Source: a bacterium
GTDB taxonomy: Bacteria > Patescibacteriota > Patescibacteriia > Magasanikbacterales > GWA2-37-8
Assembly: GCA_043821725.1 (NCBI GenBank)
Contig: JBDRCM010000006.1
Coordinates: 38,287-102,286, forward strand
Length of the DNA stretch: 64,000 nucleotides
Direction of reading: 5' to 3'
Within the stretch, counting starts at the first letter, position 1; the number at the start of each line of letters is the position of its first letter. Positions 41,711 through 60,045 of the stretch are shown piece after piece. The notes beneath the pieces are model-generated. The model was not told the origin of the DNA and did no database searches. It worked only from the letters and a program-made list of their open reading frames with translations. Both the position numbers and the translations under genes were made by a program.

Positions 41711-43786
41711 TTACTTTAATTTTCCACTTATAATATCAACTGCCGCGCTTGCCGGAACTTCAGCATAATGGCCGAATTCCATTGTAGAGCTTGCGCGCCC
41801 TTGTGATAAGGATCGCAAAGTTGTGGTGTATCCGAACATAGTAGCCAGCGGAACAATGCATTTGACTGTCTTCATTTGTCCTCTATCTCCCATTTCTTGA
41901 ATTTGAGCTCTGCGTGAATTAAGATCGCCAATAACATCACCCATATATTCTTCAGGCATTACAGCTTCAACTTTCATAATTGGCTCCAATATGATTGGAT
42001 TGGCTTTTTTGCATGCCGCTTGAAACGCCATTGATCCGGCCATTTTAAATGCCGCCTCAGAACTGTCAACTTCATGATAAGAACCGTCAAAACAAGTTGC
42101 CTTAACATCAACAACCGGATAGCCGGCTTGTATTCCGCGATCAATTGCTTCCTTAATTCCTTTTTGAATTGCAGGCAGATATTCTTTTGGAACTATCCCG
42201 CCTTTAATGGCATCCACAAATTCAAATCCAACACCGCGATCCATTGGCTCAACTTTAAGCCAGCAATGACCATATTGTCCGCGACCACCGGACTGCTTTA
42301 TGTATTTGCCTTCGCCTTCTGCGCTCATCTTTATTGTTTCTTTGTAAGCGACCTGCGGCTTGCCGACATTTGCCTGCACTTTAAATTCGCGCTTTAAACG
42401 ATCAACAATAATATCAAGATGAAGCTCGCCCATTCCGGAAATTATCGTCTGCAAAGTTTCCTCGTCAGTATGAACTTTAAAAGTTGGATCTTCTTCCATA
42501 AGCTTTTGTAATGAAAGCCCAATTCTCTCTTGATCGGATTTTGTCTGGGGTTCAATGGCAACTGATATAACTGGCTCCGGAAATGTCATTTTTTCAAGCA
42601 CAATCAATTTATTTTCATCGCATAAAGTATCTCCTGTTCCGGTATTCTTTAAACCGATGGCAGCCGCAATGTCGCCGGCAAATACTTCAGTAACATCTTC
42701 ACGGCTATTGGAATGCATTCTCACGATTCTTCCAAGCCGTTCCTTTTTCTCGCTTATTGGATTGTAAACATAGGTGCCGGCTCCCACAGTTCCGGAATAT
42801 ACTCGGAAAAAGATGAGCTTTCCAACAAACGGATCGGTTGCCACCTTAAAAGCCAGCGCGCTGAATGGAGCGTCATCGCTTGCCGGCCTGCTTTCTTCCT
42901 CTTCTGTGTCAGGATTAATTCCTTTGACAGGCAAAAGGTCGGTTGGAGCGGGCAGATAAGCTACAACAGCGTCCAGCATCGGCTGTACTCCGATATTGCT
43001 GAGAGCAGATCCGCACAGCACAGGAAAAAGATTTCCTTTTACTGTCATGATTCTTAATGCATCTTTTATTTCCTCCACAGTTAATTCTTTTCCTTCAAGA
43101 TATTTATTCATGTATTCATCATTAGCTTCAGCCACTTTTTCAATCATTTCATCTCTATATTTTTTTACTTGCTCAATCATGTCTGTTGGAATTTCAATTT
43201 CAATGACATTTTCACCATGCTGGCCTTCAAATTTATATGCCTTTTGACCAATCAAATCAATCAACCCTTTAAAAGTGCCTTCAGCGCCAATCGGCAATTG
43301 AACGGCCAGAGCATTTTTTGAAAGACGCTCGCGGATGGAACTTAAACTCGCGTAAAAGTCAGCTCCCATTTTATCCATTTTGTTAATAAATGCAAAACGA
43401 GGCACATTGTATTTGTCGGCCTGATGCCACACTGTCTCAGATTGCGGTTCAACTCCTTGAGAACCGTCAAAAACAGCTACAGCGCCATCCAATACGCGCA
43501 AGGATCTTTCAACTTCCACTGTAAAATCCACATGTCCCGGCGTATCTATAATGTTTATGCGATGATCTTTCCAAAAACACGTAGTTGCCGCTGAAGTGAT
43601 TGTAATTCCTCGCTCGCGCTCCTGCTCCATCCAATCCATCTCGGCCTCGCCTTGATGAACTTCGCCCATTTTGTGTTTTTTACCTGTATAGAAAAGCACG
43701 CGCTCGGTAGTTGTTGTTTTGCCGGCGTCAATATGGGCCATGATCCCTATATTACGAGTGTTTTCCAATGAATATTCTCTTGGCAT
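41711..43786 (-). CDS. fusA: elongation factor G
   Basis: [31 protein letters not shown]..., and domains II-V are present. The start is the ATG at 43786; the ORF-track start at 43894 runs into rpsG. Confidence 0.95.
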
Positions 43787-43802
43787 ATTAATGCTTTTAT
43801 TG

Positions 43803-44312
43803 TTATTTTTTCTTTTTTCTAAATCTGGCAAAATGGGCAAATGCCTTATTGGCTTCAGCCATGCGATGTATATCATCCCTCTTTTTAATTGCATCGCCCA
43901 AATTCTGCACGCTTTCCTGCAGTATGTCAGCCAGCTTATCGCTCATTGTCCTGCCTTTTTTGGCTTTTGCCGCCCCAATTATCCAGCGGAAAGCCAAAGC
44001 TTGCTGTCGTTTTGAACTAACCGGAATAGGCACCTGATAGTTGGCGCCACCCACCCTTCTTGACCTTACTTCAACCTGTGGAGAGACATTTTTAACTGCT
44101 TCCTCAAAAATCTTAAGCGGATCTTTTTTTGTTTCACCCTCTCCTTTTGCCTCAGCCCCTATTTTTTCCAAGGCCTTATAGACAACCGACTGAGCGATTG
44201 TCTTCTTGCCGTCCTTCATTACATAATTAATGAATTTAGCCAGTTGCTCACTGCTGTACTTTGCCTCAGCCGGCAATTTTCTGGTTAAATCCTTGTTTTT
44301 TTTACCTCTCAT
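43803..44312 (-). CDS. rpsG: 30S ribosomal protein S7
   Basis: [25 protein letters not shown]...[26 protein letters not shown]. Confidence 0.9.
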
Positions 44313-44955: not shown

Positions 44956-45113
44956 TGGTACCTGTGGATTTCTTTGCAGGCTTGGCATGATCAGGACAAA
45001 AAACACAAAATTATTTCAAAGAATTCCACCGCCCTTGCCACATATCTTTCATGGTATCTGCTATAATAATATCCTCAATAATAGTGACAGAATATGGCTT
45101 TTTTAATCTTAAC

Positions 45114-45142
45114 TTGACAAACCATAGATTTTATGATATAAT
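45114..45142 (+). promoter_or_regulatory. consensus sigma-70-type promoter for the abiEii-abiEi pair
   Basis: TTGACA (45114..45119), a 17-nt spacer, then TATAAT (45137..45142), 40 nt upstream of the ATG at 45183. Confidence 0.55.
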
Positions 45143-45182
45143 AATGTTAACAAATATGATAACTTTCTCCAATCATTAAAAT

Positions 45183-45866
45183 ATGGACAATATAGAATTA
45201 GACAAGTTGGTTTCTGAATTGCAAATATCAAAAGATCAAATATTGCGTGAGGAAGCAGAAATGTTATTTTTAGATCAGCTTGGAAAAAATAGAATATCTT
45301 CAAAACTGGTTTTTTATGGTGGAACTGCTTTGCGGTTAGCATATAATTCCCCCCGTTTCTCTGAAGACATAGATTTACTAATGATTGGCAATGTATCACT
45401 ATCAGAGCTTAAAATTTTTTTGAACACAATTCTTAAAAAGAACGATAATTGGAAGTTGATTGATATAAAGAACAAGCGCCAGATATTATTTGCCTTGATA
45501 AATATCAAAGATGAAAAATTAAAACATAATTTTTCAATTAAGATAGAGATTCATAAACCCAAGAAAAAAATAGATGTTGAATATAATTTGGCCTCAATCC
45601 AGAGCCCAACAAGTATAGCTCAACCCCTGTTATTAGTACCGAGCATAGAAGCAATGAAAGAATTAAAAATAGCAACAATTAAAGACAAAAAAAAAGCGCG
45701 AGATATATTTGATTTATGGTTCATCTTCCAAAAAATGCGAGAACCCTTTGTTATAGGGCAAAAAGTTAAATACAAAGAAAATGAGTTTAAAAATGAATTA
45801 CAAGTTTTTTTACCCAAAAAATATTATCCGCTAGTAAAACAATTGTATGAACAAGTTAGTGAGTAG
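45183..45866 (+). CDS. abiEii: AbiEii/AbiGii-family nucleotidyltransferase toxin (DUF1814)
   Basis: LVFYGGTALRLAYNSPRFSEDIDLLMIGN is the hallmark AbiEii motif. 227 aa. Confidence 0.7.
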   Translation: MDNIELDKLVSELQISKDQILREEAEMLFLDQLGKNRISSKLVFYGGTALRLAYNSPRFSEDIDLLMIGNVSLSELKIFLNTILKKNDNWKLIDIKNKRQILFALINIKDEKLKHNFSIKIEIHKPKKKIDVEYNLASIQSPTSIAQPLLLVPSIEAMKELKIATIKDKKKARDIFDLWFIFQKMREPFVIGQKVKYKENEFKNELQVFLPKKYYPLVKQLYEQVSE

Positions 45867-46422
45867 AATAAAAAGGATACCGAGAATAACCTTTAATTAT
45901 AATGACTTAAAAAAAATTACCGATCTTGAGGACGGTAGTTTGCGAGTCGCTGTTTTTCGGTTGATAAAAAGCGGAGCAATAACAAGAATAAGCAAAGGTA
46001 TTTATACTACTGATATTTCTAAAGTTGATTGGGAAATCTTTGCTGTCCAGAATTATGAACCCAGCTACCTTTCTTTTGAATGGGTGTTGGGCAAATATGG
46101 TGTGTTGAGTCAAAAGCCATATAATTTAACTTTGGCGACTAGTAGACAAACTAAGATAATTAATACAGTTCATAATATTATTTCCTATCATCATCTACAA
46201 ACAAAAATGTATTGGGGTTATGTAAAAAAGAATGGGTATCTGGAAGCAGACTTGGAAAAGGCGTGGCTAGATTTGGCATATTTATCTTTAAATGGCTATA
46301 CAAAGTTTGATTGCCAAGAAATGAATTTATCTTTGCTGAATAAAAATAAAATAAAAAAATATTTAAAAAAAATAGGGATAAAAAAATTATCCAATTTGGT
46401 TTTAAGCACAGGAATGATTTAG
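45847..46422 (+). CDS. abiEi: AbiEi-family antitoxin-like winged-HTH protein
   Basis: RVAVFRLIKSGAITRISKGIYT matches the AbiEi N-terminal wHTH. It overlaps abiEii by 20 nt. The gene order (toxin first) is inverted relative to canonical AbiE. Confidence 0.5.
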   Translation: MNKLVSRIKRIPRITFNYNDLKKITDLEDGSLRVAVFRLIKSGAITRISKGIYTTDISKVDWEIFAVQNYEPSYLSFEWVLGKYGVLSQKPYNLTLATSRQTKIINTVHNIISYHHLQTKMYWGYVKKNGYLEADLEKAWLDLAYLSLNGYTKFDCQEMNLSLLNKNKIKKYLKKIGIKKLSNLVLSTGMI

Positions 46423-46488
46423 GTTCAACAGATATCCGCACGCTTGACATAAAGCCATTATAGTGTAAATGTAGTATAAAATGAGACA

Positions 46489-46938
46489 ATGGAGAAGATC
46501 ATGAAAAGATACAGAGTGATTTCGCTTTTGATGCTGTTCACACTTTCACCCGCCTGCGCGCGCAAGCAGGTGCTCAGATCCGAATTGGTTCGCGTAGAAA
46601 TCCGTGCAAAAGGCGCAAGCAATTCTAGTAGAGAAAGCCTACTTAAGGCCATTACCTTCAGTGGCTTGATGATCAGCGTCCACAAGACCGAAAGCTTGCA
46701 GGGCGTGAGCAAGCTCAGCAAGAAGGCCACTTCGCGGATGCTGTTCAACCAGTGGTCCGAGTGCATTATCGGATCTGACAATGATCAGCTTATCCTAATG
46801 CTCAGGCGATATAAGTATGAATTCGGAATTGAATTGTGGTATCTCAACAAAGCAGTGTATCCCACAAAAAAAATGGCACGTCAAACATTGAGACACTTCA
46901 TCAAAGCAGATGCCTCTGAACTTCTGTGCTTCAAGTAG
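46489..46938 (+). CDS. hypothetical exported protein encoded in a GC-rich (about 50%) islet, likely horizontally acquired
   Basis: 149 aa with an N-terminal hydrophobic signal. Local GC is well above the window average. A stem plus T-run terminator lies at about 46975..47030 (GCAACCC...GGGTTGC TTCATTTTTT). Confidence 0.4.
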   Translation: MEKIMKRYRVISLLMLFTLSPACARKQVLRSELVRVEIRAKGASNSSRESLLKAITFSGLMISVHKTESLQGVSKLSKKATSRMLFNQWSECIIGSDNDQLILMLRRYKYEFGIELWYLNKAVYPTKKMARQTLRHFIKADASELLCFK

Positions 46939-47109
46939 CACCTCCCCCCGGAGTCGAACACATCGACTGCCCCGTAGCAACCCCGGTCTTTCCGACTGCC
47001 GACAAGGGTTGCTTCATTTTTTATAATCCGCGTTTGCGCTTTGCGCGATAATGCCGTATCATAATATACAACATTTGATATTGAATCTGATGACATAAAT
47101 ATCTAATAC

Positions 47110-47344
47110 GGGTCTGTCGCCAAATGTGCTTTCGTAGCGAAATTGATAAATTATGAGACAAAATTGTTGATAATTCCATAGTTATCTTCGCTCGCTCGGA
47201 AAAGAAAAATTATCATTTTTCTTCTCTCTCGCTTCGCTTGATAAAAAATTTTGAGGCCTATCTGTAAGATAAGCCAAGAAATTTTGAAACGATTTTGGCC
47301 ATAATTTATTAATTGCAGTAGAAATGGTATTTGGTGGCAGACCC
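47110..47344 (-). mobile_element. Tn3-like MITE copy 5 (235 bp, reverse orientation) with perfect 5-bp TSD AATAC
   Basis: GGGTCTGTCGCCAAATGTGCTTTCG ... AGTAGAAATGGTATTTGGTGGCAGACCC. AATAC is present at 47105..47109 and 47345..47349. Confidence 0.8.
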
Positions 47345-47399
47345 AATACGCACATCATCAGCCATAAGTCCACATTAAATTAATTGCTAACCCACTAAT

Positions 47400-48515
47400 A
47401 TGCAACTACTGCTAACTTTTATTTTCTGCGCTCTATCGCTCGCCGTACTTGCGGCATTGTATCTTTTTTATAAAAAAATATCAGCTTCCCAAAAGTCGCC
47501 TGACTCAGACCAGCACTTGTTCGTAATGCTACAAAATCAAATTCAGGAAACAAACAGATTGATTGACCAAAAAATGAATGAAACAAACAAAACAATGAAT
47601 GATACGCGCCACAACCTCAACCAAACAATACAGGATCAGTTCGGGCAAAGCGCCAAGTTTATCAGAGGAATAACCGAGCAGAGCAACAAAATGATTGTTG
47701 ACATAACTGAAAAATTAACCAGCTTGGATAAAACCAATCAACAGGTCATTGGATTTTCCGAACAATTGAACAACTTGGAAAAAGTTTTAACAAGCCAAAA
47801 AACGCGTGGTAATCTTGGCGAAGCCGGACTTCAGCTTGTTTTGGAAAACATACTTCCGCCGGGCGCTTATAAATCCCAATACCAATTTGAAGACGGCGAC
47901 ATTGTGGACGCGGTCATAATAACAAAGGAAGGCATGATTCCGATTGATGCAAAATTCTCACTTACTAACTACCAGCGCTTGTTCGACGAAAAAGACGAGC
48001 GCAGGCGCGTTGAATTGGAAAAAGAATTTAAAAATGATTTAAAAAAGCGCATTGATGAAACATCCAAGTATATAAAACCAAAATACGGAACAATGGAATT
48101 TGCTTTTATGTTCATTCCGGCTGAAGCAATTTATTATGACTTGCTTGTAAATCAAGTTGGCGCCATAAAAAGCAACACACGCAATATGATTGATTATGCT
48201 TTTACTGAAAAAAAAGTCATCATTGTTTCGCCAACCACATTTTCCGCTTATTTGCAGACAGTGCTTCAGGGACTAAGGGCTTTCAAAATTGAAGAAAGCG
48301 CCAAAGAAATCCGCGAAAATGTGCAAAAACTGGGTAAGCACATTATTACCTATGAAGATTTCATGAAAAAGCTGGGCTCCAGCATAGGAACATCGGTCAA
48401 TCATTATAATCATGCTTACAAAGAGCTTGCTAAAATAGACAAAGATGTGGTGCGCATTACTCAAGGAGAGCGCGCCATTGAACCGGAGCTGATTGAAAAA
48501 CCTGCGGTTGAATAA
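47400..48515 (+). CDS. rmuC: DNA recombination protein RmuC
   Basis: N-terminal TM helix, a long coiled coil, and a C-terminal domain (EFAFMFIPAEAIYYDLL...VSPTTFSAYLQTV) typical of RmuC. Confidence 0.65.
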   Translation: MQLLLTFIFCALSLAVLAALYLFYKKISASQKSPDSDQHLFVMLQNQIQETNRLIDQKMNETNKTMNDTRHNLNQTIQDQFGQSAKFIRGITEQSNKMIVDITEKLTSLDKTNQQVIGFSEQLNNLEKVLTSQKTRGNLGEAGLQLVLENILPPGAYKSQYQFEDGDIVDAVIITKEGMIPIDAKFSLTNYQRLFDEKDERRRVELEKEFKNDLKKRIDETSKYIKPKYGTMEFAFMFIPAEAIYYDLLVNQVGAIKSNTRNMIDYAFTEKKVIIVSPTTFSAYLQTVLQGLRAFKIEESAKEIRENVQKLGKHIITYEDFMKKLGSSIGTSVNHYNHAYKELAKIDKDVVRITQGERAIEPELIEKPAVE

Positions 48516-48748
48516 AAACACTCAGCTATTTTTTTTACATGTCGTTCTGGGGGGCACACCTGTGGTTCCCGAACGAATTAAAGGATCCCTCCGGGAAGTG
48601 AATTTAAATTTGTTATTTCGCCAGTAATTTAATGTTAAGTTGTATAACTAACAATGAGTTCTAACAAAAAAATACTAATAAATAATAAAAGACCCCCTTT
48701 TGTAAGGAGATCTTTTGCTCGGGTAAATTTGCTATAATAATGACTTTT

Positions 48749-49237
48749 TTAGACGCTTGAGCGTAAATCCTCAACCCTTTTATCACCGCCTCTATCTTCA
48801 TCATTTTTTTGTTGAATCATGCTCCACGCCGACCTGACAATCTGTTCGCGCCCTTTAACATCGACTGCAGAACCGCGAATATCACCACCTAACTCATCCG
48901 GTGACACATTAATCAAATCCTCATACTCACCTTTTTTCGGCAATGAATTATCTATTTTTGAATCCACATTATAGAATATTTTATAACCAGCAGGACCTTG
49001 CGGCTCGGCTAAAATAATTACGAGATGCTGTTTGCCTGTAAAATCAATTATTTTGAAACCTCCGCGTGAATTTTTTATTGTTACGCCCAGATCTTTTTTT
49101 AGCTGATCGTACATTTTTCGTACTGTTTCAGGATCATCATCAAAATCCAAAACTCCTCCATCCTCTAATTTATCTTCAGGTCCTAAACCCAATACATTCT
49201 TGGCTTTTTCTGCAAAGTCAGAATTTAATTCTGGCAT
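48749..49237 (-). CDS. hypothetical protein
   Basis: 162-aa acidic ORF with no recognizable motif. Confidence 0.35.
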   Translation of the reverse strand: MPELNSDFAEKAKNVLGLGPEDKLEDGGVLDFDDDPETVRKMYDQLKKDLGVTIKNSRGGFKIIDFTGKQHLVIILAEPQGPAGYKIFYNVDSKIDNSLPKKGEYEDLINVSPDELGGDIRGSAVDVKGREQIVRSAWSMIQQKNDEDRGGDKRVEDLRSSV

Positions 49238-49366
49238 AGTATTATATTAAGAATAATAATATTTTAAATTATACCAAAATCCACTTAATTGGTCAATACG
49301 ATTCAATTAAAAAATCATGTAAAAATACTTGAAAATTAATTGTTATTATGATATAAAGCTCATAGC

Positions 49367-49438
49367 GACCCTGTAGTTAAATGGATATAACGAGAACCTC
49401 CTAAGTTCTAGTTCCAGGTTCGATTCCTGGTGGGGTCA
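49367..49438 (+). tRNA. tRNA-Arg (anticodon CCT)
   Basis: Near-paralogue of the tRNA at 3062. The acceptor stem GACCCTG pairs with TGGGGTC (two G-U pairs). The anticodon stem AGAAC/GTTCT carries loop CTCCTAA, giving CCT. The T-arm is CCAGG-TTCGATT-CCTGG. Confidence 0.7.
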
Positions 49439-49486
49439 CTAAAACAAGCTTCGTAAATCTAAACCTGTTAATCCGCAAAAACTATC

Positions 49487-49729
49487 TCATCTCTTAATTG
49501 TCTTCTTTGTTCGCACTTGCTTTAATAATTTCTTCAAATAAACAGGATCAGATATTAGCTCTAAATCATGAATTAAAACATCAAACTGATCCTTTGACAA
49601 AAAAAATCCAAGCGTATCTTTGCCTCTCAAAATTCGCGTAATCCCACGCAAATGGCGTGAAGGGCTTTTTTGCAATTCTTTAATATTCACCACATACTCA
49701 TTTTGAATTGATTTTAATGTTTTAAGCAT
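49487..49729 (-). CDS. small Phd/YefM-like antitoxin candidate (orphan)
   Basis: 80 aa. The pattern ...ITRILRGKDTLGFFLSKDQFDVLIHDLELISDPVYLKKL resembles the antitoxin fold and C-terminal DLEL..DP motif. No adjacent toxin ORF is present. Confidence 0.3.
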   Translation of the reverse strand: MLKTLKSIQNEYVVNIKELQKSPSRHLRGITRILRGKDTLGFFLSKDQFDVLIHDLELISDPVYLKKLLKQVRTKKTIKR

Positions 49730-50270
49730 ATTTGTTATATATACAATAGTATATACCTCTTCAAAATTATAGTCAAGCTTATGCTAAGCTATCATATATC
49801 TTAATTCAATCAATTACTCACTTTAACCGACTTTACATGTCCCAATAGTTAATGATATTGTTACTATCTATTAAAATCGCGCTATAAATTAGTGCATAAT
49901 TCGTCTTGGAGGTTAGATGTCAACGACAACTAACAGCGTAAAAATCGAAAATCTGAGGATATGTATCAATATAGTTCCGGTCACGAGTTTGATCGAACTG
50001 TATAAAGATGGTAAAATCTCAGAACTGAAACTGGAGTTTGAAAGAGACTCAGCCGGCAACATCATTTATACAGATAGCTTTATGGCAGACTACTGCGACA
50101 TTCTCGCCGGTTTCGGCATACAGGGGCTGATTTAAATCTGATTTTTGCATTGCTCAAAGTCCAGGCCCTCCATGCTCGTGCGTTGTTAACGGCTCAAACA
50201 CGGATGGGCAACATTATCCACTCTATTGAGGAGTGTTTTTTTATCACAATTATAGCTAATGGGGATGCGA

Positions 50271-50424
50271 ATGAACCCCTCCCTGTGCCAAGAGCACAGG
50301 GTATCAGGTCAAAAGGCATAATGTCTGCGACTCTACGCCGTGGCAAGACCACGGGGTACTTTACCTGCGCTCGCTCGGAAATGAAAACAAGTTTTCATTT
50401 CTCTCACTTCGCTTGGTAATAAAA
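50271..50424 (+). repeat. copy C (~154 nt) of the ATGAACCCCTCC...TAATAAAA structured repeat family
   Basis: ATGAACCCCTCC, then hairpin CTGTGCCAAGAGCACAG, then GGTATCAGG..., then hairpin CCGTGGCAAGACCACGG, then hairpin GGAAATGAAAACAAGTTTTCATTTC, then CTTCGCTTGGTAATAAAAAG. Confidence 0.65.
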
Positions 50425-50615
50425 AGATAATCTTGCCTAAATTTATTTTTATGATATACTTATGCTAATTTAACTTGTCCCATTGGTATCCTTTTGGGAC
50501 TTGTTCAGTAATAGAAAACTATACCTTTGACTATTCTCTACGTGCCCATCATGAGGGGCAAGCCACTGCTATGCCTTAATAACTCTGCTTCAATTTTAAA
50601 AACCCAATCAAATTT

Positions 50616-51083
50616 ATGAAGACAATCCTATTCATCGGCAGATTTCAACCTTTTCACATAGGTCATTTGTCAGTATTAAAAAAGATTGACAAGCGAAATG
50701 ATGTAAAAAAAATTATAATAGGAATTGGAAGCGCTCAATATAGCAATACGCAAAAAAATCCATACAGTTTTGAACAAAGAAAAAAGATGATTGTAAACGT
50801 TTGTAAATCCAAAATAAAAAAGTCGATTACGGTTATTCCTTTAGATGATTTTAACAATAACGCGAAATGGGTTAAAAACGTTGAAAAAATGGCTAAAATC
50901 TTCAATGAGGCCTACTCAGGAAATGATTTAGTGACAAAACTACTGTCCGAACGGGGATATTTGATCAATAAAATAGACAAATCAATTGACATTAGCGCGA
51001 CAAAAATCAGAGAAATGATTAAAAAAGGAGATATTCAATGGAAAAAATACATTCCCTATTCTGATGCTGAAATCTATAATTAA
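50616..51083 (+). CDS. nicotinamide-nucleotide adenylyltransferase-like cytidylyltransferase (archaeal NadM type)
   Basis: ILFIGRFQPFHIGHLSVLKKI matches the (H/T)xGH nucleotidyltransferase motif of NMNAT. Confidence 0.55.
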   Translation: MKTILFIGRFQPFHIGHLSVLKKIDKRNDVKKIIIGIGSAQYSNTQKNPYSFEQRKKMIVNVCKSKIKKSITVIPLDDFNNNAKWVKNVEKMAKIFNEAYSGNDLVTKLLSERGYLINKIDKSIDISATKIREMIKKGDIQWKKYIPYSDAEIYN

Positions 51084-51100
51084 TGCCTGCCATGGCCTAT

Positions 51101-51171
51101 GGGCCTATGGTCTAATGGTACGACGCCACACTCGCATTGTGGAAATAGGAGTTCGATTCTCCTTAGGTCCA
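51101..51171 (+). tRNA. tRNA-Ala (anticodon CGC) with the G3:U70 identity pair
   Basis: The acceptor stem GGGCCTA pairs with TAGGTCC, with G3 pairing T. The anticodon stem CCACA/TGTGG carries loop CTCGCAT, giving CGC. The T-arm is AGGAG-TTCGATT-CTCCT. Confidence 0.7.
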
Positions 51172-51239
51172 CGGGCGATGGCAGGCAAAAATGAATTTAC
51201 TCGCAATCAACCTCCGAAAATTTAAAAATCTTTAAAATA

Positions 51240-51560
51240 ATCGTAAAATCCTTAAAAAAACAGGCCAAGTTCCGATAAAACGCAGATTCCCCCGAAAAGA
51301 GAACTCTTTCTTTGCTAAAAACAGATAGTTCCGATAAAAGGAAATAATGCGTTTGTATACACTATCCTGTACAAAAAATACTTATTTAAGTATTTTTTTG
51401 ATTTTTTGGTATATTTTGTTAATTTTCTGTGGATAAAGTTGTGCATAAAGTGTTGAATCTGGGGATAATTTGTATAGGATAGCGTATACAAATTAAGATT
51501 TTTTGAAATTTTGCGTTTTTTTGGTCTTTTTTTTGTATAGGATACTCTATACATTTAGAA
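51240..51560. promoter_or_regulatory. AT-rich non-coding region with three copies of a 24-bp palindromic motif and a 13-bp direct repeat (operator/iteron-like)
   Basis: TTTGTATAGGATAGCGTATACAAA at 51471..51494. Variants occur at 51352..51375 (TTTGTATACACTATCCTGTACAAA) and 51532..51555. AGTTCCGATAAAA is repeated at 51258 and 51328. Confidence 0.4.
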
Positions 51561-51763
51561 CCATATTTTTTATCAATATTTTTCAAAATCGTCGTTCCCT
51601 GTGAAACCGGTATATATTTTATGTAAAAATTGATTATCAACAAAAAAACCGCCAAATGTAAATCATGGCGATTTTTTTATTCTCACTGCGCACCATATTT
51701 TGATGCGAAGAATTGAATCCCAACTTGTCCGGACGGACTTAACCTGCTGTTGGGGGAGCAGTA

Positions 51764-52237
51764 CTATTTATAATGAGCCGTAGAAGGTGGATCAACGATG
51801 GTGAGATACCCTTCTAGCCATGTACCCTCCAACTCTTTGGTCAGTAATCTAGCGAATTTTTTAACCAAGATATGGTCAAAATAGCCGAAGCTACCACTGG
51901 CGCCATAGAAACGGATGGTTCCACAGACATGGTTCACCGATATTACTCCACCACCGAAGATGTGGAGATCGCCTCCATGTTCTTGGAGGTAGTACTTGGC
52001 TATATCACTATGATAGGATCCGTCGCCTCCACTGATGAGAGTGTATTCATTGTTATGAGAGCCAACAATGAATTTAACACCATATTTATCGGCCATGACG
52101 TGTTCAATTTCGCTCATGGCATCTTCGACTTCTCCTTTCACAATCCGCTGTTCTATATCTTCCCAATCTTCTCCGATTAATTCTTCCCATTCTGCAAGTT
52201 TATCTTTATTGGTCAACCAGTCGATCACAATCTTCAT
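51764..52237 (-). CDS. hypothetical protein
   Basis: 157 aa (MKIVIDWLTNKDKLAEWEELIGEDWEDIEQR...). It is flanked by a MITE and a family-3 repeat. Confidence 0.4.
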   Translation of the reverse strand: MKIVIDWLTNKDKLAEWEELIGEDWEDIEQRIVKGEVEDAMSEIEHVMADKYGVKFIVGSHNNEYTLISGGDGSYHSDIAKYYLQEHGGDLHIFGGGVISVNHVCGTIRFYGASGSFGYFDHILVKKFARLLTKELEGTWLEGYLTIVDPPSTAHYK

Positions 52238-52281
52238 TTAACCCTCCTGTGCAATACAAGTATTTGTATATTTGCCTGTAT

Positions 52282-52361
52282 GGGCCTGTCGCCAAATACC
52301 ATTTCTACTACAATTGATAAATTATGAATTTCGTCACGAAAGCGCATTTGGCGACAGACCC
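52282..52361 (+). mobile_element. Tn3-like MITE copy 6 (80 bp) with perfect 5-bp TSD TGTAT
   Basis: GGGCCTGTCGCCAAATACCATTTCTACTACAATTGATAAATTATGAATTTCGTCACGAAAGCGCATTTGGCGACAGACCC. TGTAT is present at 52277..52281 and 52362..52366. Confidence 0.8.
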
Positions 52362-52548
52362 TGTATGCTCAAGGATTGAAAGTCTATAAGCATAGCAAGG
52401 AAATAATATTAGTAAGCGGATAAATTGTAAATACTAATCACATTATTTATATATTAATTTAGCTATAATATAATAAAAAATAAATAAAATATACAAAATG
52501 TAAGTAATCCTTGACACAAATTTCAAAATATGCTAAATTACATTCATA

Positions 52549-52715
52549 ATGAACCCCTCCCTGTTTCAAGACCTGCCTGCCCGTAGGCAGTGCATCAGAC
52601 ACAGCAGTTTGGTAGTCCGCCCCGATAGACATCGGGGGACATTTAACTTGCTTGCCGGCAGGCAAGATCGCTCGATCCCGCTAAGCGGAATCCTCGCTAC
52701 GATGCGTTAATAAAA
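52549..52715 (+). repeat. copy D (~167 nt) of the ATGAACCCCTCC...GCGTTAATAAAA structured repeat family, ending 5 nt before the trmB-like ATG
   Basis: ATGAACCCCTCC, then hairpin CTGCCTGCCCGTAGGCAG, then CACAGCAGTTTGGTAGTCCGC, then hairpin CCCCGATAGACATCGGGGG, then ATTTAACTTGCTTGCC, then hairpin GGCAGGCAAGATCGCTCGATCCCGCTAAGCGG, then CTCGCTACGATGCGTTAATAAAA. Confidence 0.65.
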
Positions 52716-52720
52716 CAACT

Positions 52721-53507
52721 ATGCAAAATTCAATAATCAAAAACCTAGGATTAGATGACAATCAAGCAAAAGTATACGAGGCCTTGTTAGGTTTGGGAGC
52801 TTCCACAGTTAGCCAAATTACAAAAAAAGCCGGAATCACCCGTACTTTTGGCTATGAAATACTGGAAAAATTAAGCGTTCAGGGTTTGGTTAATCGTGCA
52901 TCAAGCAAAGGCAAAAAAATCAAATATGTGGCTGAACATCCGCGCAGATTTGTGCAATATATAAAAAATAATAAAAACCAATGGGAAAGGCGCCTAAAAG
53001 AAGCAGAAAATAAATTGCCGGATTTAATCTCTTTGTTTAATGTTGCTGATAAGCCGATCGTTAAGTACCAAGAAGGTATTGAGGGAATTAAAAGTATATT
53101 TTGTCAAACGCTTGAATCTAAAGAAGAAATTTTATCAATACTTGATATTGAAGGATGGGATGTTCCGGAGTTTAGGCAATGGGGCAAAAAATATAATCGT
53201 GAAAGAAGCCAAAAAAAAAATAAAAGAAAGAATACTTATGCTTGATACTCCGCAAGGCAGAGAATGGATGAAAAATTACAAAGGATCTTACAAATATACG
53301 CAATATCGCTGGATTAAACCGGAAGAAATACCAGGAATTAAGAACTTTGGCGGTGAAATCAATATTTATCAGAATAAAGTAGTTATGGCTTTGTTGAAAA
53401 AGCCGAACTTAATGGGAGCTATAATTGAAAGCTCAGCGCTGTCCAATATTTTAAAGGGGCTGTTTGAATTGGCTTGGAAACAAGGGATTGAGACAAAGAA
53501 AAAATGA
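52721..53507 (+). pseudogene. TrmB-family transcriptional regulator, split by a frameshift (N-terminal HTH ORF 52721..53245, C-terminal domain ORF 53040..53507)
   Basis: The N-terminus LGLDDNQAKVYEALLGLGASTVSQITKKAGITRTFGYEILEKLSVQGLV is a TrmB HTH. The C-terminal domain continues in another frame (GAKNIIVKEAKKKIKERILMLDTPQ...). The overlap contains A6 (53186..53191) and A10 (53211..53220) homopolymers. Confidence 0.6.
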
Positions 53508-53646
53508 TGAAGTGGTTTTTAAAAGCAAATTATTTTTCGAAACAGATTTGCACTTCGTTTTAGATTAAAATAATTTTATATTTTTTTTTATTTTTATTTT
53601 ATCTTCAGTATGTTATGATTGATACACAAATAATAAATACTTTTAA

Positions 53647-53982
53647 ATGCACACTCCTAATTCTGGTAAAATGGTGAGGATTTACAGTTTAGACGTTATT
53701 ATTTCAGTTGGATATATGGTTAATTCTAAATGTGCCACTCATTTCAGAATTTGGGTCACTAGTATTCTTAAAAAATATCTAATAGATGGGTATGCAATAA
53801 ATGAAAAAAGATTATTTGGATTGACAAAACTGTCAAAATATTATAAAATGCAAGTCAATATGAATAATATATTAAATACAATTAATTTAGTAACCACCAA
53901 AGTAAAAGCTTGCATAATGTTTGGCAGCTTTTTTGGCTTCAAAAACACTGTACAAGGGAGCTTTGGGTCTAATTCCTGTTAA
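53647..53982 (+). pseudogene. truncated RhuM-family (virulence-protein-like) gene fragment
   Basis: IYSLDVIISVGYMVNSKCATHFRIWVTSILKKYLIDGYAINEKRL matches the conserved N-terminal core of RhuM-family proteins (DVIISVGYRVNS...). Full-length members are about 330 aa; this ORF is 111 aa with a non-homologous tail. Confidence 0.5.
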
Positions 53983-54010
53983 TTTGTAATAAAAATAACA
54001 AAAAATAACA

Positions 54011-54039
54011 AACTCCCAAAGCTCAAATGGGAGTTTTTT
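54011..54039 (+). terminator. intrinsic terminator after the RhuM fragment
   Basis: ACTCCCA-AAGCTCAAA-TGGGAGT followed by TTTTTT. Confidence 0.6.
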
Positions 54040-54050
54040 AATTATCAATC

Positions 54051-54197
54051 AATGAACCCCTCGCCGACTCAGTCGGGGTAATCAGGCACAGCAGTTTGGA
54101 AGACCGCTGTGGCAAAACCACAGAGGATTTAACTTGCTTGCTCGGTAATGAAAATAAATTTTCATTACCCTCCTACGCTGCGTCAACAAAAAATAAT
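54051..54197 (+). repeat. copy E (~147 nt) of the structured repeat family, ending at the ABC-F ATG
   Basis: ATGAACCCCTCG, then hairpin CCGACTCAGTCGG, then GGTAATCAGGCACAGCAGTTTGGAAGACCGC, then hairpin TGTGGCAAAACCACA, then GAGGATTTAACTTGCTTGC, then hairpin TCGGTAATGAAAATAAATTTTCATTACCC, then TCCTACGCTGCGTCAACAAAAAATAAT. Confidence 0.65.
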
Positions 54198-55655
54198 ATG
54201 TTAAAAACAAATAATTTATCTCTACATTACAGCAGTGATAATAAGCTATTCAAGAATATTAATATTTCTCTTGATAGCTCATCTAACAAAAAAGTGGCGT
54301 TAGTGGGCAGAAATGGATGTGGCAAATCATCTTTGCTTAAGATATTAAATAAAGAAATTAAGCCAACAAGTGGAAGTATAGACTTTGCCAATGAAATAAT
54401 TGGATATTTACCACAGGTAATTAATCTACCGGACTTTAAATTAGTGGGTGAATATCTAGAAAGTAAACTTGATGAATCTTGGATGGAATACAAAATTGAT
54501 ATGGCGCTGGCTGACGTTGGGCTTGCAGATGAGTGTATAATCAAAGAAATAGACGACCTTAGCGGTGGAGAAAAAGTCAGAGTTGCCCTCGCGGGTATTC
54601 TACTTGATGAACCTACCATACTACTTTTGGATGAACCTACTAATAATCTTGATTCTGAAGGTGTAGAGTGGTTAGAAAAATTTATCAACAGCTTCTATGG
54701 ATCAATAATTCTAGTTTCTCACGATAGATATTTGATAAACAATACTGTAGATAATATCTGGGAAATAGACTTGGATACGCTGGGTTTAAAAATATATGAT
54801 GGAAATTATGATAAATTCGTAGAAGAAAAAGAAAAGTGTTTCCATAAGTCAATGACTGAATATAAATCTAAAGAGCGAGAAATTAATAGAATTGAAAAAT
54901 GGCTTACAGAACATGAATTCCATCCCAAATATAGATTTGGCAGTCTTGTCATGAGCCAGAAAACTAAGTTAGAAAAATTGAAAAACGCCAGAACTGACAA
55001 ACCTGCTGGAAATACAAAAATAAAAATGCAAAAATTGGAATCTAAAAAACGTGGTTTGATTATTAATGTTAAAATAAATTCTAAAAAATTTGGTCGGAAA
55101 GAAATACTCAATAATATATCGTTCAAAATACACAAAGACAAAAAAATACTATTAAGTGGACCAAACGGTAGTGGAAAGACCACTCTTCTGCAAATCATAT
55201 ATGGTGAAGATAATGATTATGATGGTAATATTGAGCTTGGCGAAAATGTTACGATTGGATACTTAAGACAATTTAGTACGCTTAACGAAAACAAAAGCAT
55301 ATTAGATGAGTTCGAGAATAAGACTAAAATAATCAATCCTAAATCTAGAAGTACTCTGGCTACCTACTCTTTTTTTTCAGATCAAGTAATGCGCAAAGTT
55401 GGTATGTTAAGCTTTGGCCAAAGAAAAAGATTGGAATTGGCTATCATCTTAGCACAAAATCCCACTCTATTAATATTAGATGAGCCAACTAATCATCTGG
55501 ATATATATACTAGAGAAGAATTAGAAAAATTTATCTTATCACAGTCAATTCCAATGATAATCGTATCTCATGATAGATACTTTATTGAGAAAATTGGGGT
55601 TGATAAATGTGTTGAGCTATGTATAGACCAATCCATCTACAAATACCAATACTAA
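54198..55655 (+). CDS. ABC-F family ATPase (two nucleotide-binding domains, no membrane domain)
   Basis: Two Walker A boxes (GRNGCGKSSLL, GPNGSGKTTLL) and two signature/Walker B contexts (LSGGEKVRVALA...LLLDEPTNNLD, LSFGQRKRLELA...LILDEPTNHLD). The start is set at the ATG at 54198 because the upstream ORF-track extension overlaps repeat copy E. Confidence 0.7.
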   Translation: MLKTNNLSLHYSSDNKLFKNINISLDSSSNKKVALVGRNGCGKSSLLKILNKEIKPTSGSIDFANEIIGYLPQVINLPDFKLVGEYLESKLDESWMEYKIDMALADVGLADECIIKEIDDLSGGEKVRVALAGILLDEPTILLLDEPTNNLDSEGVEWLEKFINSFYGSIILVSHDRYLINNTVDNIWEIDLDTLGLKIYDGNYDKFVEEKEKCFHKSMTEYKSKEREINRIEKWLTEHEFHPKYRFGSLVMSQKTKLEKLKNARTDKPAGNTKIKMQKLESKKRGLIINVKINSKKFGRKEILNNISFKIHKDKKILLSGPNGSGKTTLLQIIYGEDNDYDGNIELGENVTIGYLRQFSTLNENKSILDEFENKTKIINPKSRSTLATYSFFSDQVMRKVGMLSFGQRKRLELAIILAQNPTLLILDEPTNHLDIYTREELEKFILSQSIPMIIVSHDRYFIEKIGVDKCVELCIDQSIYKYQY

Positions 55656-56060
55656 ACGCTTTGTATTTGTTGTGCTTGATTAAAAAGTATATTGATGAAG
55701 TATAACTTAAGTGTACACACTTATTTTATAGCTGCCAAGTATTAACAACGTATAAATATACACATATAATATGCGGCTTCCACCAACCGACGGATTAGAT
55801 CACAAATTTCGTCGCAGAGTTGCAAAAAATGGATTTATTGAAAATATTTTCCAGTCCCATTAATTAATCCCCACCACAAAAACCCAATATTGAATACTAA
55901 TTTATTGTTTTTTTAAGTTATGCTGTGATATAATATGACTTATGGAAAAGCTCAAAAAAAAGAGCAGATTTTGAATTATACTTCAACATCCGATTTTATC
56001 TTTTTTCTAATTATTTTTTTAAAAAACCATTTTTAATCTAACAAAATATTCATCCTATTT

Positions 56061-60035: not shown

Positions 60036-60045
60036 AATAAAAAAA

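What the first reader, a model, noticed from the sequence alone, without database searches (positions are those of the whole stretch)
45100..55700. About 10 kb accessory/defence islet mixing core housekeeping genes with TA modules, tRNAs, gene fragments and all three repeat families
From the rpsL promoter region onward the window contains: an AbiEii-AbiEi pair with a textbook TTGACA-17-TATAAT promoter and inverted (toxin-first) gene order; a roughly 50%-GC foreign-looking exported-protein gene with its own terminator; a Tn3-like MITE; rmuC; tRNA-Arg(CCT); an orphan Phd/YefM-like antitoxin; NMNAT; tRNA-Ala; an AT-rich region with palindromic iteron/operator-like repeats; an unknown gene; a second MITE; three structured-repeat copies; a frameshifted TrmB; a RhuM N-terminal fragment; and an ABC-F ATPase. 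The density of tRNA genes, toxin-antitoxin or abortive-infection modules, gene remnants and repeats marks an integration hotspot in an otherwise streamlined genome.
Basis: partly seen in the sequence, partly recalled or inferred. Interest (0 to 1): 0.5.

Follow-up and report, generated by a model that had tools for sequence, protein, structure and literature searches.

The report
Patchwork variable zone, not one island
This 10-kb stretch of a tiny-genome (Patescibacteria) bacterium is a conserved chromosomal junction that has been inverted at one point and padded with several small unrelated insertions, which is fairly ordinary, although the "iteron-like" repeats in it turn out to be a conserved DnaA-box element shared by related genomes.

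Summary
The inventory is almost entirely correct. The window comes from a Magasanikbacteria-like Patescibacteria genome assembled from a metagenome.

About 40 related loci share a short conserved backbone: a TPR-protein operon, a 65-75-nt module (three DnaA boxes plus a 24-bp palindrome, often with parS sites), tRNA-Ala(CGC), tRNA-Arg(CCT) and a divergent RmuC. RmuC, both tRNAs, the "iteron" region, TrmB and the Janus/Ocnus-like "unknown gene" all belong to this backbone. They are not cargo.

Specific to this genome:
- the AbiEii-AbiEi pair
- two genes with no homologues anywhere (149 and 162 aa)
- a 1.64-kb block wedged between the two tRNAs (an 80-aa ORF, a 72-aa ORF, a structured repeat and a solitary NMNAT)
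- two Tn3-like MITEs with intact 5-bp target duplications
- three structured repeats
- a RhuM remnant and an ABC-F gene

Third-codon-position GC skew points to an old inversion with its breakpoint between RmuC and tRNA-Arg.

The TPR-RmuC interval spans 1-9 kb in 16 relatives, so this is a real variable zone. I found no integrase, no att repeats and only one defence module. The DnaA-box cluster is not oriC, because strand skew does not switch across it.

Verdict: a known kind of integrase-free hotspot, of modest interest.

The parts
45114..45142 (+). Perfect sigma-70-type promoter (TTGACA-17-TATAAT with TG) in front of the AbiE pair
   Evidence: 12 of 12 matches. It is 74% identical over 43 nt to the promoter of the BrnT/BrnA-like pair at 3292-3334 (D17).
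45183..45866 (+). AbiEii nucleotidyltransferase toxin; 29.8% GC
   Evidence: Pfam PF08843 at 2.5e-18; PADLOC at 8.2e-22. The motif GGTALRLAY..RFSEDIDL is visible in the translation. GC z=-2.6.
45847..46422 (+). AbiEi antitoxin, downstream of the toxin and overlapping it by 20 nt
   Evidence: PADLOC AbiEi at 3.3e-28; NCBIfam NF047376 at 1.3e-11, below its cutoff.
46489..46938 (+). 149-aa ORF with no homologues; likely start 46501 after GGAG; signal-peptide-like N-terminus; 46% GC and 60% GC3
   Evidence: Self-hit only. GC3 z=+4.8. No Pfam, NCBIfam, PHROG or PADLOC hit.
47110..47344 (.). 235-nt Tn3-like MITE with target duplication AATAC
   Evidence: It is 95% complementary to the copy at 6968-7202.
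47400..48515 (+). RmuC, a backbone gene whose orientation relative to the tRNA/TPR block is reversed compared with all relatives
   Evidence: Pfam 1.3e-52. 78% and 76% identity to L001 and L002. Synteny.
48749..49237 (-). 162-aa acidic ORF with no homologues, with its own TTGACC-17-TATAAT promoter (49296-49268), sitting at the inversion breakpoint
   Evidence: Self-hit only in 5.8 billion proteins and in 1.84 billion representatives. Promoter. The AlphaFold model is unusable, pLDDT 44.
49367..49439 (+). tRNA-Arg(CCT), backbone
   Evidence: Present beside RmuC in 22 of 25 relatives scanned.
49445..51083 (.). About 1.64 kb of non-syntenic DNA wedged between the two ancestrally adjacent tRNAs: the 80-aa ORF (49487-49729, minus strand), the 72-aa ORF (49917-50135, plus strand), a structured repeat (50271-50420) and NMNAT (50616-51083, plus strand)
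   Evidence: tRNA spacing in relatives is 5-315 bp. Alignment to L002 sets the right edge at the conserved tRNA-Ala leader. In a relative, NMNAT sits in a nadE-NMNAT-nadA cluster on another contig.
51101..51172 (+). tRNA-Ala(CGC), backbone, enclosed by a conserved flanking stem GCCTGCCATGGCC / GGCGATGGCAGGC
51354..51553 (-). Conserved module: three DnaA boxes at 51428-51468 (TTATCCCCA-N11-TTATGCACA-N3-TTATCCACA on the minus strand) flanked by 20-bp palindromes at 51354-51373, 51471-51490 and 51534-51553, in AT-rich DNA
   Evidence: The three-box unit with fixed 20/12 spacing occurs only in the nearest relatives and never in shuffles.
51764..52237 (-). Janus/Ocnus (PHPT1-like) family gene, divergent partner of TrmB, as in L002
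   Evidence: PF05005 at 1.3e-6. PDB PHPT1 at 0.065. 30% identity to L002 8150-8686, which is itself PF05005 at 4.7e-9.
52282..52361 (.). 80-nt mini-MITE of the same family, with target duplication TGTAT
52549..52715 (+). 167-nt structured repeat (head ATGAACCCCTC, tail CTACGATGCGTTAA) preceded by a promoter at 52511-52539 and ending about 10 nt before the TrmB start codon
   Evidence: Fold energy -58.4 kcal/mol, z=-3.3. No Rfam family.
52721..53507 (+). TrmB-family regulator, backbone, split by +1 A in an A10 run at 53211-53220
53647..53982 (+). RhuM-family remnant; homology covers only about 53650-53814
   Evidence: PF13310 at 1e-17, profile positions 19-80 of 252. 49% identity to residues 85-158 of the RhuM-Fic protein of L086, which lies in the same interval.
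54052..54190 (+). Structured repeat copy ending 8 nt before the ABC-F start codon
54198..55655 (+). ABC-F ATPase; 31.7% GC; not syntenic in relatives
   Evidence: NF000355, 397 bits against a cutoff of 380..
56061..58385 (+). 774-aa TPR membrane protein, first gene of the conserved operon that anchors the right side of the backbone
   Evidence: Its coding-strand GC3 skew is -0.105 here, against +0.06 to +0.53 in 14 of 15 relatives.

Best explanation
The stretch is not a single islet. It is the expanded and rearranged version of a short junction that is conserved in Magasanikbacteria-like genomes.

**Backbone in relatives.** The TPR-protein operon is transcribed leftward. Next comes a module of three DnaA boxes plus 24-bp palindromes, often with parS sites. 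Then tRNA-Ala(CGC) and tRNA-Arg(CCT) read leftward, and RmuC reads rightward. In the minimal form all of this fits in about 1 kb.

**What happened in this genome.**
1. The tRNA-to-TPR segment was inverted relative to RmuC and to the direction of replication. The breakpoint lies between RmuC and tRNA-Arg, where a promoter-equipped 162-aa ORF with no homologues now sits. (Inferred.)
2. At least five separate blocks of non-syntenic DNA accumulated. (Their presence is shown; that they arrived independently is inferred.)
   - The AbiEii/AbiEi pair, the 149-aa ORF and a MITE, to the left of RmuC.
   - The 162-aa ORF at the breakpoint.
   - A 1.64-kb block between the two tRNAs: the 80-aa ORF, the 72-aa ORF, a structured repeat and a solitary low-GC NMNAT.
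   - A MITE and a structured repeat between the Janus/Ocnus-like gene and TrmB.
   - A RhuM remnant, a structured repeat and ABC-F between TrmB and the TPR operon.
3. Two genes are decayed: TrmB has a +1 frameshift in an A10 run, and RhuM is truncated at both ends.

**Mechanism.**
- Shown: Tn3-type transposition for the MITEs, from their 5-bp target duplications.
- Inferred: piecemeal illegitimate or homology-assisted insertion into a permissive, gene-poor zone near the replication origin. This was not site-specific integration at a tRNA.
- Inferred: the AbiE pair probably acts as a self-stabilising toxin-antitoxin or abortive-infection module.
- Inferred: the DnaA-box/palindrome module is a conserved chromosomal binding platform for DnaA and an unknown dimeric factor. 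In relatives it lies upstream of an outward-reading operon. Here 4.5 kb of inserted DNA separates it from that operon.
For: **Backbone and synteny**
- tblastn of all window ORFs against 160 RmuC loci.
- tRNA-Arg and tRNA-Ala are adjacent and divergent from RmuC in relatives.
- The window aligns with L002 across tRNA-Ala, its flanking stem and the DnaA boxes.
- The three-box unit and abutting palindrome are conserved at two sites per genome.
- The TrmB / Janus-Ocnus divergent pair is shared with L002.

**Variable interval**
- The interval is 0.96-9.2 kb in 16 relatives, with different cargo in each.
- The same MITE family sits in the same interval in L013.

**Non-syntenic blocks**
- They have no homologues in any related locus at E<1e-6, apart from RhuM-family matches in two loci and weak generic ABC-ATPase matches.
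- Two of the ORFs have no homologues at all.
- NMNAT sits in a NAD-synthesis operon in a relative.
- Composition deviates.

**Inversion**
- TPR-block GC3 skew is negative here but strongly positive in relatives, while RmuC skew is unchanged.
- The genes downstream of RmuC in relatives (rpsT, holA and others) are absent from the window.

**Transposition and decay**
- MITE target duplications.
- TrmB frameshift and RhuM truncation.
Against: - The nearest available relatives are distant: RmuC is at most 78% identical. The order and timing of events cannot be resolved, and some "insertions" could be ancestral genes lost elsewhere.
- Only 10 kb either side of RmuC was visible in relatives, so the accessory genes may be core genes located elsewhere in those genomes. 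NMNAT is one such case.
- The A10 frameshift could be a sequencing error.
- The window comes from a metagenome-assembled contig, so junctions at repeats cannot be verified without the reads.
Confidence: 0.7

Rival explanations
1. One reading: one or more integrase-mediated genomic islands integrated at the 3' end of tRNA-Arg(CCT) and/or tRNA-Ala(CGC). They were later degraded, so only cargo remains (toxin-antitoxin genes and gene fragments).
For: - A 1.64-kb non-syntenic block begins within about 6 nt of the tRNA-Arg 3' end.
- The block's genes have low GC.
- A second tRNA pair in the window (Arg-TCT and His) is followed directly by a BrnT/BrnA-like toxin-antitoxin pair. tRNA-proximal insertion therefore recurs in this genome.
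Against: - No integrase or recombinase domain appears in any ORF or alternative-frame ORF.
- No duplicate of either tRNA's 3' end of 11 nt or more exists anywhere in the window.
- The non-syntenic DNA is in at least five separate pieces interleaved with conserved backbone.
- Most pieces are not next to a tRNA.
Confidence: 0.12
2. The AT-rich DnaA-box/palindrome region is the chromosomal replication origin (oriC). The surrounding mosaic would then reflect the rearrangement-prone surroundings of an origin.
For: - Three DnaA boxes plus a fourth lie within 215 bp.
- The three-box arrangement is conserved.
- parS clusters are interleaved with it in many relatives, with 11 perfect sites in L008.
- dnaA lies 8-10 kb from RmuC in L015, L017 and L025.
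- Flanks are 72-82% AT.
- The window's cumulative GC skew reaches its minimum at 52,745.
Against: - In 14 of 15 relatives the divergent TPR and RmuC genes have opposite coding-strand GC3 skew. That gives the same top-strand sign on both sides, so there is no strand switch at the site.
- Where dnaA is visible, the cumulative-skew minimum sits at dnaA and not at the three-box unit.
- In the window, skew is flat rather than rising to the right of the site.
- Two copies of the module exist per genome, in L003 and L013.
- There is no dnaA in the 64-kb window.
Confidence: 0.08
3. The mosaic is an assembly artefact: a chimeric metagenome contig joined at dispersed repeats, with a homopolymer error producing the TrmB frameshift.
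For: - The source is a metagenome-assembled genome (NCBI locus tags ABH832_..., 127,915-bp contig).
- MITEs and structured repeats lie near several junctions.
- The frameshift is in an A10 run.
Against: - Both MITEs have matching 5-bp target duplications on their two sides. That would not survive a chimeric join or recombination through them.
- The reversed GC3 skew of the TPR block is intrinsic to the gene sequences and independent of how contigs were joined.
- The tRNA-Ala leader, DnaA boxes and palindrome are collinear with L002.
- The TrmB / Janus-Ocnus divergent pair is preserved.
Confidence: 0.07

Closest known systems
Integrase-free hotspots of horizontal gene transfer / small defence-and-TA islets between conserved core genes
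   Same: - The position is fixed between conserved flanks (the TPR operon and RmuC).
- Content and size differ between relatives, from 1 to 9 kb.
- Cargo includes a toxin-antitoxin/Abi module, gene remnants, MITEs, genes with no homologues and compositionally deviant genes.
- tRNA genes are nearby.
   Different: - Only one recognised defence module is present.
- The cargo is split into at least five pieces interleaved with backbone elements.
- The zone also contains a conserved DnaA-box/parS-type cis-element and an old inversion breakpoint.
AbiE type IV toxin-antitoxin / abortive-infection system (AbiEi antitoxin, AbiEii GTP-specific nucleotidyltransferase)
   Same: Both protein families are present, adjacent and overlapping, behind one strong promoter. 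The nucleotidyltransferase motif is intact.
   Different: The gene order is toxin-first. From my own knowledge, the characterised systems are antitoxin-first with autoregulation by AbiEi. No function was tested.
Tn3-derived inverted-repeat miniature elements (TIMEs)
   Same: - Terminal inverted repeats of about 45 bp that begin GGGTCTGTCGC. From memory, Tn3's begin GGGGTCTGACGC.
- 5-bp target duplications.
- No coding capacity.
- Six copies of 54-263 nt in 64 kb.
- A copy in a related genome (L013).
   Different: - No cognate Tn3-family transposase is visible in the window.
- Internal deletion derivatives go down to 54 nt.
- This is a Patescibacteria host.
Non-origin DnaA-box clusters (B. subtilis DnaA-box clusters; E. 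coli datA/DARS) and origin-proximal parS centromere regions
   Same: - Several closely spaced consensus DnaA boxes lie outside oriC but within about 10 kb of dnaA in relatives.
- parS sites are interleaved with them in many relatives.
- They sit in intergenic DNA upstream of operons.
   Different: - The fixed three-box geometry (N11 and N3 spacers, all boxes in one orientation) directly abuts a 24-bp palindrome, TTTGTATASACTAGTSTATACAAA, whose binding protein is unknown.
- There are two inverted copies per genome in L003 and L013.
- This window and its closest relatives have no parS at the site.
- No binding data exist.

Membership tests
tRNA-targeting integrative genomic island | Integrase or recombinase gene, or a remnant of one, next to the tRNA | tested here: not met
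   No integrase or recombinase family in any ORF of 50 aa or more in 45.1-55.7 kb, including alternative frames.
tRNA-targeting integrative genomic island | Direct repeat of the tRNA 3' end (attL/attR) bounding the insert | tested here: not met
   The longest matches of either tRNA elsewhere are 10-mers, at chance level, apart from the paralogous tRNA-Arg(TCT).
tRNA-targeting integrative genomic island | Insert absent from the same tRNA locus in related genomes | tested here: met
   The tRNA-Arg to tRNA-Ala spacer is 5-315 bp in 11 relatives and 1,661 bp here. None of the inserted genes is in related loci.
AbiE toxin-antitoxin / abortive infection | AbiEii (DUF1814) nucleotidyltransferase | tested here: met
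   PF08843 at 2.5e-18, 67.3 bits against a cutoff of 22.5. PADLOC at 8.2e-22.
AbiE toxin-antitoxin / abortive infection | AbiEi antitoxin encoded alongside | tested here: met
   PADLOC AbiEi at 3.3e-28, nearly full length. NCBIfam at 1.3e-11, but 44.5 bits is below its cutoff of 150.
AbiE toxin-antitoxin / abortive infection | Antitoxin-first bicistronic operon | tested here: not met
   The toxin (45183-45866) precedes the antitoxin (45847-46422).
AbiE toxin-antitoxin / abortive infection | Growth arrest neutralised by the antitoxin; phage defence | not testable with these tools
   Needs expression and phage assays.
Tn3-derived MITE (TIME) | Tn3-like terminal inverted repeats of about 38-45 bp | tested here: met
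   GGGTCTGTCGCCAAAT is conserved at both ends of six elements, and similarity extends to about 45 nt. The resemblance to the Tn3 inverted repeat is from memory.
Tn3-derived MITE (TIME) | 5-bp target-site duplication | tested here: met
   AATAC, TGTAT, TAACA, TAAAA and TATAA are exact. AATAA/ACTAA has one mismatch.
Tn3-derived MITE (TIME) | Cognate Tn3-family transposase in the genome | not testable with these tools
   None is in the 64-kb window, and the rest of the genome is not available.
Chromosomal origin oriC | Cluster of DnaA boxes with adjacent AT-rich DNA | tested here: met
   Three boxes in 41 bp plus a fourth at 51634. Flanks are 72-76% AT.
Chromosomal origin oriC | Switch of strand compositional skew at the site | tested here: not met
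   GC3 skew shows no switch across the orthologous site in 14 of 15 relatives. Skew minima lie at dnaA in L015, L017 and L025. The right arm of the window is flat.
Phd/YefM antitoxin (the 80-aa ORF) | Match to the Phd/YefM sequence family | tested here: inconclusive
   Only the NCBIfam YafN model, at E=0.0074 and 16.8 bits against a cutoff of 99. No Pfam hit even at E up to 5.
Phd/YefM antitoxin (the 80-aa ORF) | Phd/YefM fold and an adjacent toxin gene | tested here: not met
   The AlphaFold model (pLDDT 67) has no PDB match at E<=0.001. No toxin ORF fits between it and tRNA-Arg.
Defence island | Two or more recognised defence systems clustered | tested here: not met
   PADLOC finds only AbiEi/AbiEii. 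The RmuC and ABC-F hits are generic domain similarities.

The most novel reading that the evidence does not exclude
The 65-75-nt unit is a previously undescribed control element that is conserved across Magasanikbacteria-like genomes and lies near the replication origin. It consists of three co-oriented DnaA boxes with fixed N11/N3 spacing fused to the 24-bp palindrome TTTGTATASACTAGTSTATACAAA.

- It occurs at two conserved sites, in inverted orientation. One is upstream of the TPR operon beside the tRNA pair and the parS sites. The other lies between holA and a dksA-lspA-comM operon.
- It would couple DnaA to a second dimeric DNA-binding protein, either to regulate flanking operons or to titrate or recycle DnaA in the way datA and DARS do.
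- Candidates for that second protein are the locally abundant TrmB paralogues and the single-domain LAGLIDADG-like protein. The latter is encoded 60-170 bp upstream of a palindrome in four distinct relatives (five loci, two of them near-identical).
- The variable islet in this window would then be cargo accumulating around, and uncoupling, this element.
Probability: 0.3. Interest if true: 0.55.

Novelty: new member of a known kind. Interest (0 to 1): 0.3.

Why it matters
As a gene inventory it matters little. It is one more small variable zone with one toxin-antitoxin module, MITEs and gene debris, here in a streamlined genome.

Two points are more useful.

First, it shows how such zones grow in Patescibacteria without integrases. 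Small pieces are added around a conserved junction near the replication origin, even between two adjacent tRNA genes. An inversion has also put a whole operon head-on to replication.

Second, it corrects a tempting misreading. The "iteron-like" repeats and the tRNAs are ancient backbone, not marks of a mobile element. They point to a conserved DnaA-box/palindrome module (with parS in many relatives) that could be tested as part of replication or segregation control. No experimental work on either process turned up in my literature searches for this uncultured phylum.

Tried and rejected
1. **oriC at 51.4 kb.** Attractive because of the DnaA boxes, parS in relatives, dnaA nearby in three relatives and the cumulative-skew minimum at 52,745. 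Rejected because GC3 skew does not switch across the orthologous site, and skew minima sit at dnaA.
2. **MITE-mediated inversion of the RmuC segment.** The inverted MITE copies at 47.1 and 52.3 kb suggested it (I7/I8). Rejected because each copy keeps its own matching 5-bp target duplication.
3. **att sites.** No tRNA 3'-end duplicates.
4. **Integrase or transposase remnants.** None, including alternative-frame ORFs.
5. **Closer relatives.**
   - Exact-protein look-ups for RmuC, RpsL and the 162-aa ORF found nothing.
   - The metagenome scan gave at most 75% identity.
   - Fine-scale boundaries could therefore not be drawn.
6. **Phd/YefM identity of the 80-aa ORF.** No support from Pfam, PDB sequence search, or AlphaFold plus Foldseek.
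7. **Structure of the 162-aa ORF.** pLDDT 44, unusable.
8. **Rfam, for the structured repeats.** Nothing at gathering thresholds. At relaxed thresholds the only overlap was a chance-level match at 54135-54173 (24.4 bits against a gathering score of 65.5, E=0.17).
9. **Palindromes as a replacement for parS.** Rejected because the two co-occur in many relatives.
10. **Palindromes as operators strictly tied to an adjacent TrmB gene.** Not consistent, because minimal loci have palindromes without TrmB.
11. **Literature.** No paper on Patescibacteria origins or on this motif was found.
12. **One script timed out** and was rewritten.

Full report
**Source and gene map**

RmuC (47400-48515) is at most 78% identical to proteins of metagenome-assembled genomes labelled Candidatus Magasanikbacteria or Patescibacteria. 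Two ORFs match only NCBI entries with locus tags ABH832_00965 and _00975, on a 127,915-bp contig. The window is therefore a Patescibacteria genome with no close relative in the collections searched. Exact-protein look-ups failed, and the best metagenome match was 75%.

ORF listing, tRNA scans and four profile libraries give this order:
- rpsL on the minus strand, with a perfect promoter at 44955-44927.
- A perfect plus-strand promoter at 45114-45142.
- AbiEii, 45183-45866.
- AbiEi, 45847-46422.
- The 149-aa ORF.
- A MITE, 47110-47344.
- RmuC.
- The 162-aa ORF, minus strand.
- tRNA-Arg(CCT).
- The 80-aa ORF, minus strand.
- The 72-aa ORF.
- A structured repeat.
- NMNAT.
- tRNA-Ala(CGC).
- The AT-rich palindrome region.
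- A Janus/Ocnus-like gene, minus strand.
- A mini-MITE.
- A structured repeat.
- TrmB, frameshifted.
- A RhuM fragment.
- A structured repeat.
- ABC-F.
- The 774-aa TPR protein.

**The observation**

Two points are weak. The Phd/YefM label for the 80-aa ORF rests on a YafN hit at E=0.0074 only, with no Pfam hit and no fold match. The 162-aa ORF was overlooked.

The region stands out from the rest of the window:
- Coding density is 70-73% against 89.5% outside.
- Five of 11 repeat copies fall within it, P=0.024.
- Composition is heterogeneous. AbiEii, AbiEi, NMNAT and the RhuM fragment are about 30% GC and ABC-F about 32% (z from -2.0 to -2.7). The 149-aa ORF has 60% GC3 (z=+4.8).

**Comparative anatomy**

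I fetched 10 kb on each side of RmuC in 160 related loci and compared every window ORF with them. Only RmuC, TrmB, the TPR protein and the three genes after it are syntenic.

In relatives the order is:
- the TPR operon, reading leftward
- a short non-coding stretch
- tRNA-Ala(CGC) and tRNA-Arg(CCT), reading leftward
- RmuC, reading rightward

The two tRNAs are 5-315 bp apart in 11 relatives. Here they are 1,661 bp apart.

Alignment with L002 shows that the tRNA-Ala leader and trailer stem, and the downstream DnaA boxes and palindrome, are orthologous. This places the inserted block at about 49445-51083. It holds the 80-aa and 72-aa ORFs, a structured repeat and NMNAT. In a related genome, NMNAT lies in a nadE-NMNAT-nadA...nadC-nadB cluster on another contig. 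The solitary low-GC copy here is therefore displaced or acquired.

The TPR-RmuC interval ranges from 0.96 to 9.2 kb in 16 relatives. Its cargo differs from genome to genome:
- one to three TrmB paralogues
- a Janus/Ocnus-like gene in L002, 30% identical to the one here
- a RhuM-Fic fusion plus a NYN-domain protein in L086; its residues 85-158 are 49% identical to the fragment here
- a radical-SAM protein
- a vitamin transporter
- a single-domain LAGLIDADG-like ORF

The same MITE family sits in this interval in L013.

**The "iterons"**

The three palindromes (TGTATA-N8-TATACA) flank three DnaA boxes on the minus strand at 51428-51468: TTATCCCCA-N11-TTATGCACA-N3-TTATCCACA.
- A three-box unit with exactly this spacing occurs in 11 of 81 sources, all among the nearest relatives, and never in shuffled sequence.
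- More copies turned up in the metagenome loci.
- A palindrome directly abuts the boxes in nearly all of them.
- The conserved core is 65-75 nt.
- Forty-five unique palindromes give the consensus TTTGTATASACTAGTSTATACAAA.
- L003 and L013 carry two copies in inverted orientation. One is at the tRNA/TPR site. The other lies between holA and a dksA-like/lspA/comM operon.
- Canonical parS sites cluster at the first site in many relatives, with 11 perfect copies in L008. There are none in this window or its closest relatives.
- dnaA lies 8-10 kb from RmuC in three relatives. I detected it with a B. subtilis DnaA sequence written from memory.

**Is it oriC?**

I tested this directly, and the answer is no.
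- In 14 of 15 relatives the TPR orthologue has positive coding-strand GC3 skew (+0.06 to +0.53).
- The divergent RmuC has negative skew (-0.01 to -0.32).
- Both genes therefore show the same top-strand sign, so there is no switch between them.
- Where dnaA is visible, the cumulative-skew minimum lies at dnaA.

The module is best read as a non-origin DnaA-box cluster near the origin, combined with the binding site of an unknown dimeric factor. In relatives it lies 0.4-0.7 kb upstream of an outward-reading operon.

**Inversion**

In this window the TPR block has negative GC3 skew: -0.105, -0.088 and -0.243 for three of its genes. RmuC keeps its usual negative value. The genes downstream of RmuC in relatives (rpsT, holA, dksA-like, lspA, comM) are absent from all 64 kb.

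The simplest reading is an old inversion that flipped the tRNA-to-TPR segment relative to RmuC and to the direction of replication. Its breakpoint lies at 48516-49366, which now holds the promoter-equipped 162-aa ORF with no homologues. The MITEs did not mediate the inversion, because each keeps its own 5-bp target duplication.

**Repeats**

The MITE family has six copies of 54-263 nt. Its inverted ends begin GGGTCTGTCGCCAAAT, and five of the six copies have exact 5-bp duplications; the sixth has one mismatch. This fits Tn3-derived miniature elements.

The structured repeat has the head ATGAACCCCTC and five copies in the window, three of them in the region.
- It folds stably, z=-3.3.
- It matches no Rfam family.
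- It is absent from all 163 loci.
- Two copies end 8-10 nt before the start codons of TrmB and ABC-F, and one has its own promoter. A role as a 5' leader is possible but untested.

- Whole-genome synteny was done as far as the data allow.
- There are no tRNA 3'-end duplications.
- There are no integrase remnants.

**Verdict**

This is a variable zone near the replication origin, without an integrase, built piecemeal on a conserved backbone. It contains one AbiE module in unusual toxin-first order, two genes with no homologues, MITEs and decaying genes. It belongs to a known kind and is of modest interest. The conserved DnaA-box/palindrome module is the part most worth following up.

Noticed in passing
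window 3292-3897 (next to tRNA-Arg(TCT) 3062-3134 and tRNA-His 3182-3254): A second toxin-antitoxin pair lies directly after a tRNA pair: a BrnT-like toxin (3309-3617; PF04365 at 8.3e-6, below cutoff) and a CopG/BrnA-like antitoxin (3619-3897; PF12441 at 1.1e-7). Its TTGACA-17-TATAAT promoter is 74% identical over 43 nt to the AbiE promoter. A structured-repeat copy follows at 3977-4037.
   Followed up: partly
window 33771-41564: The str operon is interrupted. About 8 kb sits between fusA (41711-43894, minus strand) and tuf (32389-33579, minus strand). It carries a 246-aa ORF, a Na+/H+ exchanger (34695-36164) and two tandem paralogous proteins of about 866 aa, one with a beta-helix match. Their DNA is 73-88% identical at a 2,632-nt offset.
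   Followed up: partly
window 31624-31677: A 54-nt mini-MITE of the same family, with target duplication TATAA, sits between rpsJ and rplC inside the S10 ribosomal-protein operon.
   Followed up: partly
L003 7765 and 18475; L013 1432 and 6618: The DnaA-box/palindrome module occurs twice per genome in inverted orientation, bracketing the segment tRNAs-RmuC-rpsT-holA (5-11 kb). At the first site the palindrome precedes box 1; at the second it follows box 3.
   Followed up: partly
L008 2363-3311; also L003, L006, L011, L012, L019, L021, L024, L082, L083: Clusters of perfect or near-perfect parS sites (TGTTTCACGTGAAACA), up to 11 in 1 kb, are interleaved with the DnaA-box module just upstream of RmuC. 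The window and its closest relatives (L001, L002, L013, L016, L022, L081, L086) have none there.
   Followed up: partly
L016 9072-9458, L091 491-877, L096 8370-8822, L032 7427-7792, L076 4458-4835: A conserved single-domain LAGLIDADG-like ORF of 121-150 aa (PDB LAGLIDADG endonucleases at 4.8e-5) lies in the TPR-RmuC interval. It is always 60-170 bp upstream of a 20-bp palindrome, which has the size and symmetry a homodimeric LAGLIDADG protein would recognise. This is a lead for what binds the palindrome.
   Followed up: partly
window 56061-63999: The TPR operon genes have negative coding-strand GC3 skew here (-0.09 to -0.24), whereas the TPR774 orthologue is strongly positive in most relatives. 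This implies that a run of plus-strand genes at least 8 kb long is head-on to replication in this genome.
   Followed up: partly
window 14506-17264: Long inverted repeats (77 nt at 94%, 34 nt at 91% and 31 nt at 97%) bracket a 2.6-kb segment carrying a GH5 cellulase-family gene (14831-16180) and a family-2 glycosyltransferase (16261-17004). A short structured-repeat copy sits at 16202-16264.
   Followed up: no
window 12942-13076: Eleven or more tandem 9-nt units (TGTTAGTGG/TGTCAGTGG) lie at the 3' end of an S1-domain protein gene (12940-14256, minus strand).
   Followed up: no
window 51084-51189: tRNA-Ala is enclosed by a 10-13-nt inverted repeat (GCCTGCCATGGCC ... GGCGATGGCAGGC) that is conserved in L002. 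It is probably a precursor-processing stem.
   Followed up: partly
window 8495-10981: gyrA lies here, 37 kb from RmuC. In more distant Patescibacteria (for example L049, L080, L101, L125), gyrA sits immediately upstream of RmuC. This is further sign of rearrangement.
   Followed up: no
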